A stretch of 64,000 nt of DNA, taken from positions 5,518,001 to 5,582,000 of the forward strand of contig OX597819.1 of the NCBI GenBank assembly GCA_951406725.2, given 5' to 3'. Positions 2,411 through 60,570 of this stretch are shown one piece after another (position 1 is the first letter of the stretch; every line of letters begins with the position of its first letter). A program made the translations under genes and the position numbers. The DNA comes from Octopus vulgaris. Lineage: Eukaryota. The notes beneath the pieces are model-generated. The model was not told the DNA's origin and searched no databases. It was given only the letters and a program-made list of their open reading frames with translations.

Positions 2411-2452
2411 CTACACTGAAGAGATTCAGCTAAGACCGAAATTCGTATGTGG
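2411..2452 (+). ncRNA. Minimal type I hammerhead ribozyme motif, stem II partly degenerate
   Basis: CTACA-CTGAAGA-GATT...GACC-GAAA-TTCG-TA-TGTGG: 5-bp stem I, intact core boxes, GUA site. Confidence 0.5.
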
Positions 2453-2469
2453 GATTAGTATTTTGTTTT

Positions 2470-22884: not shown

Positions 22885-22934
<50 letters not shown>

Positions 22935-22938
<4 letters not shown>

Positions 22939-23156
22939 AATATGTTACATTACTCAATAGTCAAGATAAAACTCTGAGTTTCAGATGCCGAAGTGGAAAT
23001 CCACAACACCATCTCTTCGGTTATCTAGCTATTTGAAAACGCTATGAAAAAATATCTTGACTATTGAGTAATGTAACATATTGTTGTATAGATAAATTTC
23101 CTCTATTTACATAATATTGAGGTCTCTTTCTTTCTTTTGTTATCTTACCGTTTTAC

Positions 23157-23162
<6 letters not shown>
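22935..23162. mobile_element. Miniature inverted pLTR pair of the PLE family at 44257-45843
   Basis: Minus copy 22935-23054 containing the HHR, followed by a plus-strand pLTR tail from 23053; a further tail piece lies at 20859-20925. Confidence 0.8.
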
Positions 23163-44220: not shown

Positions 44221-44260
<40 letters not shown>

Positions 44261-44561
44261 ATAAAACGGTAAGATAACAAAAGAAAGAAAGAGACCTCAA
44301 TATTATGTAAATAGAGGAAATTTATCTATACAATATGTTACATTACTTGGTAGTCATAAAACTCTGAGTTTCAGATGCCGAAGTGGAAATCCACAACACC
44401 ATCTCTTCGGTTATCTGGCTATTTGAAAACGTTATGAAAAAATACCGTTAAAAATGAAGGGAAATTACTCTGTTATAACTCTGCTTTGCCTGCGTACTTA
44501 TACATCGCTCGCATTTTTCGTCATAAAAATTATATAAAAATACATAAAAATATATAAAAAT

Positions 44562-45551
44562 ATAACTATAGACACTAACCTGACGGTTGTCAATTTCTTA
44601 GACGTTTCCTTAGATCTTAATAATAATATTTATAAGCCTTATAGGAAGCCCAATGATAGACTAAGTTATATTAATGTAGGTTCATGCCATCCCCCTATAG
44701 TATTCAAAAATTTAGTTAAAAATATTAGTAAGAGGATTTCTAGCCTCTCATCTAATGAGGACATCTTCAATAGCGTTGCCCCAGTTTATAATAAAGCTTT
44801 AAAAGATAGTGGTTTTAGCGAAAAAATAAAATATACACCTATCACCAGCCCAACAATAAGGAAAAGGAATAATAGAAATAGGAAGGTCATCTGGTTTACG
44901 CCCCCTTACTCACCCGAGGTGGCCTTCAATATAGGTAAATATTTCCTAGCACTGATAGATAGACATTTTCCAGTTAACCATGCTTATAGGAAACTCTTCA
45001 ATAGACACAATTTAAAAATTAGTTTTAGTTCAACTACCAATTTTAAAAACATAATCAATCATAACATACAAAAAACACAAGAAGAAAACAGCTGTTCATG
45101 CAGGAATAAAGAATTGTGCCCGCTAAATGGAGCTTGCATGTCCAAGACCATCATATATGAAGCTACCGTAAACTCTATAACCACTAAAGACACCGTTTCG
45201 ACGAAGAAATACGTGGGCCTGACAGAGGGTAATTTCAAGGCCAGGTTCAATAACCACACTTTGAGCTTTAGGCACTGGAACAAAAGAAAAGCGACACAAT
45301 TATCCAATCATATTTGGTCTTTAAGAGATAAAGGTGTCGATTATAACATACAATGGAAGATTTTGGCCAGATGTAAGCCCTATACTAACGGCAGCGGAAG
45401 GTGCGGTTTATGCGACATGGAGAGATGGCTTATCTGGAAAAGCAGCTTAGACCCTACCACATGTCTAAATACAAGGACAGAGCTTTTCGGATCATGCCCA
45501 CATGTGACTAAATTTCTGTTACGTTTTTGGTCCCCTAAAGAAAACGGATAG
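44562..45551 (+). pseudogene. PLE RT C-terminus + GIY-YIG endonuclease, open frame without its start (Nematis-like cysteine layout)
   Basis: VNFLDVSLDL, YKPYRKPND, SCHPP, VIWFTPPYS, CSCRNKELCPLNGAC, IIY...YVGLT...RFNNH, CGLCDMER, LNTRTEL..CPH. Confidence 0.9.
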
Positions 45552-45745
45552 AACATGCTTTCTGTGTTATGTCCCAAGAAGATTTTATATATTTTTATAT
45601 ATTTTTATATATTTTTATGTATTTTTATATAATTTTTATGACGAAAAATGCGAGCGATGTATAAGTACGCAGGCAAAGCAGAGTTATAACAGAGTAATTT
45701 CCCTTCATTTTTAACGGTATTTTTTCATAACGTTTTCAAATAGCC

Positions 45746-45808
45746 AGATAACCGAAGAGATGGTGTTGTGGATTTCCACTTCGGCATCTGAAACTCAGAG
45801 TTTTATCT
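45746..45808 (+). ncRNA. Type I hammerhead variant (CCGAAGA core); copies on minus strand at ~44356-44416 and ~22964-23026
   Basis: Stem I AGATAA/TTATCT, stem II GATG/CATC, extra T, GAAA, stem III ACTC/GAGT, GUU site. Confidence 0.65.
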
Positions 45809-45860
45809 TGACTACCGAGTAATGTAACATATTGTATAGATATATATATATATATATATA

Positions 45861-56911: not shown

Positions 56912-56970
56912 TGCCGCTGAAGAGGGGAAAATTTCTTGTGAATTAACCCCGAAATTGGACCAATACGGTA
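56912..56970 (+). ncRNA. Canonical-core type I hammerhead ribozyme
   Basis: TGCCG-CTGAAGA-GGGG...CCCC-GAAA-TTGG-A-CCAA-TA-CGGTA: all three stems pair; AUA site after 56965. Confidence 0.8.
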
Positions 56971-60389: not shown

Positions 60390-60570
60390 ATAGTTAATCC
60401 AAACAAGAAAGCACAAAAAAACACAACAACGCGAGGACGTGGAACAAATATAGTATTATTGGACGCTCAGGAAAGAAGGGAAGAAGGAGCCCTTAACGTT
60501 TCGAGCAGAGCTCTTCGTCGGAAACATAGGAGAGGAGAAGGAAAGATCCAAGGAAGGTTAGTGGAAGACA
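60390..60570 (-). mobile_element. PLE pLTR fragment with minimal hammerhead motif (60490-60525)
   Basis: Minus strand CCGACGA-A-GAGC-TCT-GCTC-GAAACGTT; stem I is weak. Confidence 0.6.

What the first reader, a model, noticed from the sequence alone, without database searches (positions are those of the whole stretch)
45746..45808. Hammerhead family with fixed non-canonical core (CCGAAGA, extra U before GAAA) and a built-in competing helix
Seen: all three copies (45746, 44356, 22964) have C at core position 4 and an extra U, with stems II and III intact (stem I is shortened in the 44356 copy). CCGAAG is perfectly complementary to CTTCGG (45779-45784) inside the extended stem II, next to a GTGGA/TCCAC hairpin. 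Known: the consensus is CUGANGA, and short-loop stem III HHRs of PLEs are thought to work as dimers. Inference: a natural variant ribozyme with an off conformation that could gate cleavage during retrotransposition.
Basis: partly seen in the sequence, partly recalled or inferred. Interest (0 to 1): 0.75.

Follow-up and report, generated by a model that had tools for sequence, protein, structure and literature searches.

The report
Penelope-element hammerhead with fixed C4 core
This is the hammerhead RNA motif at the tail of a jumping gene with about 4,000 copies in this genome; nearly every copy has C in place of a normally fixed U, which likely makes it a slow self-cutter, a few tiny insertions begin exactly at its predicted cut site, and the proposed built-in off-switch helix is predicted to form rarely and is not kept across the family.

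Summary
The motif is real. It is a type I hammerhead in the pseudo-LTR of a young Hydra-clade Penelope-like retroelement (2.58-kb unit, 708-aa RT + GIY-YIG ORF, (TA)n targets). C4 is the family consensus (3683 C vs 114 U), and the U copies look like CpG decay. The 'extra U' is C in an older subfamily, and U before GAAA is common in published Hydra hammerheads. The 44356 copy is the inverted end of the same insertion, so it is not independent. The CCGAAG/CUUCGG helix is predicted at only 1-3% and is broken in the older subfamily and in a CCGAUGA sub-lineage, so gating is not supported. The element is mostly copied from uncut RNA: 78 of 100 full-length 5' ends run past the cut site. Yet 6 of 12 (TA)n-flanked mini-insertions start exactly at the predicted cut, a weak footprint of cleavage. 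U4C is published for a viroid. I found no report for Penelope elements, but a key paper was unavailable. The scan noted C4 Hydra hammerheads before, on other DNA.

The parts
45746..45808 (+). Type I hammerhead motif in the 3' pseudo-LTR: stem I 45746-45751/45803-45808, core CCGAAGA 45752-45758 (C4 = 45753), stem II GATG 45759-45762/CATC 45785-45788, T 45789, GAAA 45790-45793, palindromic stem III 45793-45801, predicted cut between 45802 and 45803 (after GUU)
   Evidence: sequence, descriptor scan, folding; same architecture as Hydra hammerheads in Craig 2021 File S2
45768..45784 (+). Stem II insert: GTGGA/TCCAC hairpin (pairing about 0.98) and the CTTCGG hexamer complementary to CCGAAG (helix 1-3%)
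44561..45551 (+). 5'-truncated ORF of the Hydra-clade PLE (end of RT, CxCX5C linker, GIY-YIG endonuclease)
   Evidence: (Pfam GIY-YIG E=0.022, below the curated cut-off)
45552..45842 (+). 3' UTR / pseudo-LTR ending about 40 nt past the predicted cut, running into (TA)n
44256..44564 (-). Inverted pseudo-LTR plus tail of the same insertion; holds the 44356-44416 hammerhead copy with a 3-nt deletion in stem I
22933..23054 (-). Second insertion in (TA)n: inverted pseudo-LTR piece with the 22964-23026 hammerhead copy
23053..23160 (+). Second insertion, forward piece starting 1 nt after the predicted cut site (2-nt microhomology at the joint) and running to the tail end
   Evidence: L145
20858..20916 (+). 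Tail-only fragment of the same element, without the hammerhead

Best explanation
The motif is the type I hammerhead of a young Hydra-clade Penelope-like retroelement, fixed for U4C across the family, and it is likely a weak, dimer- or protein-assisted self-cleaver rather than a switch-gated one. Shown: the element, its copy number, the C4 consensus, and 3' ends about 35-40 and 105 nt downstream of the predicted cut, in (TA)n. Inferred: reverse transcription starts at those downstream sites, so a coding copy can only be made from RNA whose 3' hammerhead is uncut or religated. U4C, the monomer-unstable stem III and (in the young subfamily) A9-U pairing would all keep cleavage low. Occasional cleavage after GUU would free a short 3' RNA that is copied into mini-insertions starting at the cut. 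The CCGAAG/CUUCGG helix is likely incidental.
For: ELEMENT: tandem unit 2579-2590 bp and a 708-aa ORF with RWK, DKT, CxCX5C, CxxC and CxH, matching the Hydra diagnosis. C4: 3683 vs 114 U. In 6 of 7 U4-selected insertions with an inverted partner, the partner has C4, which points to post-insertion CpG decay. CONSTRAINT: majority differences from the young subfamily are 0 of 63 sites in the hammerhead vs 13 of 103 in the flanks (middle subfamily, p=0.002), and 2 of 63 vs 14 of 95 (old subfamily, p=0.03). The one core change that has spread is at free position 7. CLEAVAGE FOOTPRINT: 100 of 120 junction copies were fetched. Of 12 (TA)n-flanked 5' ends in +49..+60, 6 start exactly at +51, on six contigs (p=2e-4 under a uniform null, lower with microhomology weighting). 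UNCUT TEMPLATES: 78 of 100 full-length 5' ends (100 of 164 fetched) run upstream of the cut. PRINT: U4C lowers activity in vitro but suffices in vivo in a viroid (PMC3088659). The PAc hammerhead is protein-assisted, and uncut RNA is the dominant insertion template (PMC11167929).
Against: No cleavage assay exists. The (TA)n class was singled out after seeing the data, 2 of its 12 members were moved there by eye, and n is small. The excess among inverted joints (19 of 48 at +51/52) vanishes if microhomology is weighted (p=6e-4 unweighted, 0.03 and 0.66 at weights 1.5 and 2). Full-length copies show no pile-up at the cut (0 of 100 at +51, 4 at +52..+57). None of 26 copies that diverge just after stem II ends at the cut or joins foreign RNA there. 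Deep mutagenesis found low activity for CUGA single mutants (PMC9901934), so U4C plus the 11.1 change could be close to dead. The tail (+91..+155) is as conserved as the hammerhead, so the constraint may reflect protein binding. Flank differences come from BLAST alignments and may include indel artefacts. A canonical CUGA family in the same genome also showed no segment starting at its cut (0 of 41, of which 30 were selected for the upstream half), so C4 is not shown to cause read-through.
Confidence: 0.6

Rival explanations
1. Catalytically dead relic. U4C and the change at 11.1 inactivated the ribozyme. The fold is kept by short evolutionary time or as a binding site for the element's protein, and the element transposes without cleavage.
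For: At most about 1-2% of roughly 4,000 copies start at the cut (estimate). No full-length pile-up. No upstream product ends. Hammerhead mutants do not affect PAc insertion in vitro. CUGA mutants are weak.
Against: 6 of 12 (TA)n mini-insertions start exactly at +51. All other core positions are intact across three subfamilies about 10% apart in the pLTR. The same U4C change marks a subfamily of a second, unrelated hammerhead family (about 51 of 100 listed; 10 of 10 loci sort with a linked downstream variant), which random decay would not favour.
Confidence: 0.27
2. One reading: the CCGAAG/CUUCGG helix is a selected off state that is released during retrotransposition.
For: Perfect 6-bp complementarity in the young and middle subfamilies. 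It is compatible with stems I and III in constrained folding. A specific match like this is 2% by shuffle. The element does need its 3' hammerhead uncut.
Against: Predicted population 0.6-3%. Mismatched in 21 of 29 older segments and in the CCGAUGA sub-lineage. C4 predates the perfect helix. No compensatory change was seen.
Confidence: 0.07
3. Efficient cleavage followed by religation into unit-length circles, which are copied by rolling-circle reverse transcription. Read-through of the cut site then reflects ligation, not low activity (model of Cervera and de la Pena 2014).
For: Head-to-tail arrays of up to about 5 units. Units within one array differ at 0-2 sites vs 8-17 between most arrays.
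Against: Two arrays on different contigs differ by 1 site, which a homogeneous tandem master explains equally well. No heterologous ligation at the cut in 26 copies. A U4C core is expected to be slow.
Confidence: 0.06

Closest known systems
Hydra clade of C-terminal EN+ Penelope-like elements and their hammerheads (Craig et al. 2021, PMC8557442; passages, section 11 and supplement part 2 read)
   Same: Under 3 kb; single RT + GIY-YIG ORF; RWK, DKT and CxCX5C motifs; (TA)n targets; type I hammerhead with a palindromic stem III and 1-nt loop; GUU cut triplet occurs there too; U directly before GAA in 17 of 25 listed families (my count).
   Different: All 25 listed families have CUGA, though the authors' descriptor required it. 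Here the core is CCGA, stem II has one unpaired pyrimidine at its base, and the stem II insert is 22 nt. The 12-nt core string was not found in that supplement.
Metazoan PLE minimal and short-stem-III hammerheads (Cervera and de la Pena 2014, PMC4209133; parts 1-2 of 4 read)
   Same: Located in the pLTR, palindromic stem III, dimer model, low activity; core variants (U3-A8) and a bulged helix II (D. virilis) are described.
   Different: U4C is not mentioned in the parts read.
Viroid hammerhead with U4C (Ambros and Flores 1998; seen only as cited in Perreault et al. 2011, PMC3088659, passages and section 8)
   Same: The same core substitution, reported as much slower in vitro but sufficient in vivo.
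   Different: There it is a variant of a viroid RNA; here it is fixed in about 4,000 genomic copies of a retroelement.
PAc (Poseidon) protein-assisted hammerhead (Frangieh et al. 2024, PMC11167929; parts 1-2 of 4 read)
   Same: Two internal RT start sites give a 'tail' (here ends near +87 and +157), and uncut RNA is the main template.
   Different: No U4C is reported for PAc, and no RNA-seq reads were found ending at its cut. Here some genomic mini-insertions start at the predicted cut.

Membership tests
Hydra-clade PLE | Single ORF, RT with C-terminal GIY-YIG, element under 3 kb | tested here: met
   2579-2590-bp unit, 708-aa ORF; Pfam GIY-YIG only E=0.022, below the cut-off
Hydra-clade PLE | RWK and DKT motifs, no GxKF; CxCX5C linker; CxxC and CxH in the endonuclease | tested here: met
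   against section 11 of Craig 2021
Hydra-clade PLE | (TA)n insertion, pseudo-LTRs, tandem and inverted copies, tail | tested here: met
Hydra-clade PLE | Placement in the RT phylogeny | not tested
   no tree built; published Hydra proteins were compared by eye only
Type I hammerhead ribozyme | Three helices around the core; G12-A13-A14, A15.1-U16.1 and an NUH triplet | tested here: met
   stem III is only plausible as a dimer (intermolecular duplex -7.4 kcal/mol)
Type I hammerhead ribozyme | C3-U4-G5-A6-N7-G8-A9 box | tested here: not met
   U4 is C in 97% of matches; the other six positions are met
Type I hammerhead ribozyme | 10.1-11.1 pair stacked directly on G12 | tested here: inconclusive
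   G pairs with C36 in the model and leaves one pyrimidine. G-U or G-C with a bulged C is possible but predicted at under 1%. U-U, U-C and G-U occur here in published Hydra motifs
Type I hammerhead ribozyme | Site-specific self-cleavage | not testable with these tools
   only an indirect genomic footprint
Conformationally gated ribozyme | A conserved, populated alternative helix | tested here: not met

The most novel reading that the evidence does not exclude
U4C is a recurrent, selected detuning of Penelope-element hammerheads. Because reverse transcription starts downstream of the 3' ribozyme, these elements gain from a slow core. C4 has been fixed independently in this Hydra family and in a subfamily of a second hammerhead family in the same genome, while residual cutting leaves mini-insertions that begin at the cut. 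Such families would be missed by every CUGANGA-based survey.
Probability: 0.25. Interest if true: 0.65.

Novelty: new variant of a known kind. Interest (0 to 1): 0.42.

Why it matters
What hammerheads do in Penelope-like elements is still open (stated in PMC8557442). A very successful young family with a core change known to slow cleavage is a natural test of how much cleavage these elements need. Its mini-insertions starting at the predicted cut are a rare genomic hint of cleavage in vivo. Published PLE surveys required CUGANGA, so C4 families may have been scored as lacking ribozymes.

Tried and rejected
SEARCHES WITH NO YIELD: an Rfam scan of the window gave only microsatellite noise. A DNA search of the genome with 141 nt returned nothing because common words are skipped. 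A protein search returned only 100%-identical copies, so no sister family with U4 could be reached. Sequencing runs: no RNA holder is on record; the contigs laid show subfamily variants but cannot show expression or ends. TESTS THAT CAME OUT NEGATIVE: pile-up of full-length 5' ends at the cut; upstream products ending at the cut or ligated to other RNAs (0 of 26, all internal indels). The excess of inverted joints at +51/52 is not robust to microhomology (a rough hand-collapse to 14 of 40 events gave p=0.01, 0.15 and 0.84). In the upstream control window (+34..+49) there are 263 matches; 30 were fetched, with 20 junctions, 9 of the same subfamilies. That is about 5 per nt, like +53..+60, against about 17 per nt at +51/52. 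REJECTED: antisense hammerhead (no core). U4 as an ancestral subfamily is disfavoured: the 17 of 27 U4 among 'old' segments is a selection artefact. The rolling-circle test on arrays was inconclusive. PAPERS NOT HELD: Lunse et al. 2017 and Ambros and Flores 1998. The former could already list U4C short-stem-III variants. SEARCHES FOR PRIOR PRINT: (hammerhead + U4C + self-cleavage: only Perreault 2011). The supplements of Cervera 2014 were not read and could bear on novelty.

Full report
OBSERVATION. The sequence at 45746-45808 (+) reads as a type I hammerhead: stem I AGAUAA/UUAUCU, core CCGAAGA, stem II GAUG/CAUC around a 22-nt insert, U, GAAA, palindromic stem III ACUC-A-GAGU, and a predicted cut after GUU between 45802 and 45803. 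Below, C3 = 0 and the 3' product starts at +51. The other two copies lie on the minus strand. The 44356 copy is the inverted end of the same insertion (100% over 209 nt), so the window holds two independent insertions.

THE ELEMENT. The motif sits 200 nt behind a truncated ORF ending in a GIY-YIG domain. The genome has 3756 exact matches to a 24-nt motif pattern and 4028 to an 18-nt one, with 0 for the reversed controls. Tandem arrays give a 2579-2590-bp unit with a 708-aa ORF. It carries RWK, DKT, CxCX5C, CxxC and CxH and lacks GxKF, which is the Hydra-clade diagnosis in Craig et al. 2021 (section 11). Of 44 segments from loci not selected on junctions, 26 end near +87 in (TA)n, 16 carry the tail to about +157, and 2 are other. 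This is the two-start-site 'tail' signature described for PAc.

C4. The pattern with C4 has 3683 matches and with U4 114, or 3.0%. U4 copies are spread over all subfamilies, and in 6 of 7 insertions with an inverted partner the partner has C4. C4 sits in a CpG, so U4 is best read as decay after insertion (inference). In eight public runs laid as contigs, no variant at C4 was listed. A second, unrelated minimal hammerhead family (window 60521) is about half C4 (51 of 100 listed, my count). There C4 sorts with a linked downstream variant in 10 of 10 loci, so it forms a subfamily. A third family (window 56917) is U4 in 99 of 100 listed. In print, U4C is known from a viroid, slow in vitro but sufficient in vivo (PMC3088659), and CUGA mutants were weak in a deep scan (PMC9901934).

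THE 'EXTRA U'. It is C in the older subfamily. In Craig's File S2, 17 of 25 Hydra families have U directly before GAA, opposite U or G (my count). So this is the known soft base of stem II in this clade, here with one more unpaired pyrimidine. In the young subfamily the U is predicted to pair with A9 (0.86-0.92), which would disfavour the active core (inference).

THE COMPETING HELIX. Its constrained energy is close to that of an open-core hammerhead fold, but both are minor: 0.6-3% for the helix, while stem II and the inner hairpin pair at 0.94-0.99. In six other natural copies the helix is 1e-10 to 3e-3. It is mismatched in 21 of 29 older-subfamily segments (that set is enriched for U4-selected loci) and in a CCGAUGA sub-lineage (8 of 103 segments). 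No compensatory change was seen. I do not support it as a selected gate.

IS THE MOTIF CONSTRAINED? Majority differences from the young subfamily are 0 of 63 hammerhead sites vs 13 of 103 flanking sites (middle subfamily), and 2 of 63 vs 14 of 95 (old subfamily, leaving out the selected position 4); p=0.002 and 0.03. The tail is equally conserved (0 of 60, 1 of 65), so this need not mean catalysis.

DOES IT CUT IN VIVO? I searched for copies whose 5' end lies in +49..+60. There were 120 matches; the 100 listed were fetched. The script classed 48 as inverted joints, 10 as (TA)n, 3 as unique and 39 as indels or direct joints; I moved two of the last group to (TA)n by eye. Six of the 12 (TA)n-flanked ends are at +51 exactly. 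These are clean 35-105-nt insertions on six contigs (p=2e-4 under a uniform null; microhomology to TA would favour +52, not +51). The class was chosen after seeing the data. Inverted joints show 19 of 48 at +51/52, but this is explained if microhomology is weighted. Background on both sides is about 4-5 junctions per nt. Against frequent cutting: 78 of 100 full-length 5' ends extend upstream of the cut, none is at +51 and 4 are at +52..+57 (100 of 164 fetched). None of 26 copies diverging after stem II ends at the cut. The canonical family likewise showed no start at its cut in a small, biased sample (0 of 41).

MECHANISM. Shown: architecture, consensus and end positions. Inferred: reverse transcription starts downstream of the 3' hammerhead, so productive templates are uncut or religated. 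The ribozyme is likely slow and needs a dimer or the element's protein, and rare cuts leave mini-insertions (0.6). Rivals: dead relic (0.27), gated switch (0.07), efficient cutting with circularisation (0.06).

NOVELTY. The element is a Hydra-clade PLE by motifs (no tree was built). The motif works like a hammerhead but fails the strict U4 criterion, so I file it as a variant. Paper searches found no C4 PLE family. Lunse 2017 was not held and may bear on this, and the Cervera 2014 supplements were not read. Earlier notes of this scan report C4 Hydra hammerheads in this genome and in others; they are unchecked and not counted as support. Also seen: PMC6765202 (passages) and bioRxiv 10.64898/2026.07.22.740005 (part 1 of 5); neither changed the reading.

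Noticed in passing
window 56917-56968 (+): Canonical CUGAAGA type I hammerhead (GGGG/CCCC stem II, palindromic stem III) in a short TA-flanked repeat. 518 matches in the genome, 99 of 100 listed U4; no linked ORF found in 30 loci.
   Followed up: partly
window 60495-60521 (-): Minimal hammerhead CCGACGA-A-GAGC/GCTC-GAAA of another repeat family. 1016 matches, split into C4 and U4 subfamilies.
   Followed up: partly
window 2416-2455 (+): Degenerate hammerhead-like motif with a CTGAAGA core and short stem I.
   Followed up: no
L061/L062 (G000:C1:57.21 Mb) and L307 (G000:C11:13.70 Mb): Multi-unit tandem arrays whose compared units differ at 0-2 sites, within and between these two arrays.
   Followed up: partly
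ORF residue 346 (L061): The RT catalytic motif is YKDD in 103 of 104 matches, where the published Hydra proteins seen show YRDD.
   Followed up: no
element +42..+48 (window 45794-45800): The stem III palindrome is a frequent fold-back centre and a recurrent 2-nt deletion site among copies.
   Followed up: no
runs X1-X20: The young element is held at 0.89-1.00 word share under nine organism codes. This could be related species, mislabelled runs or horizontal transfer.
   Followed up: no
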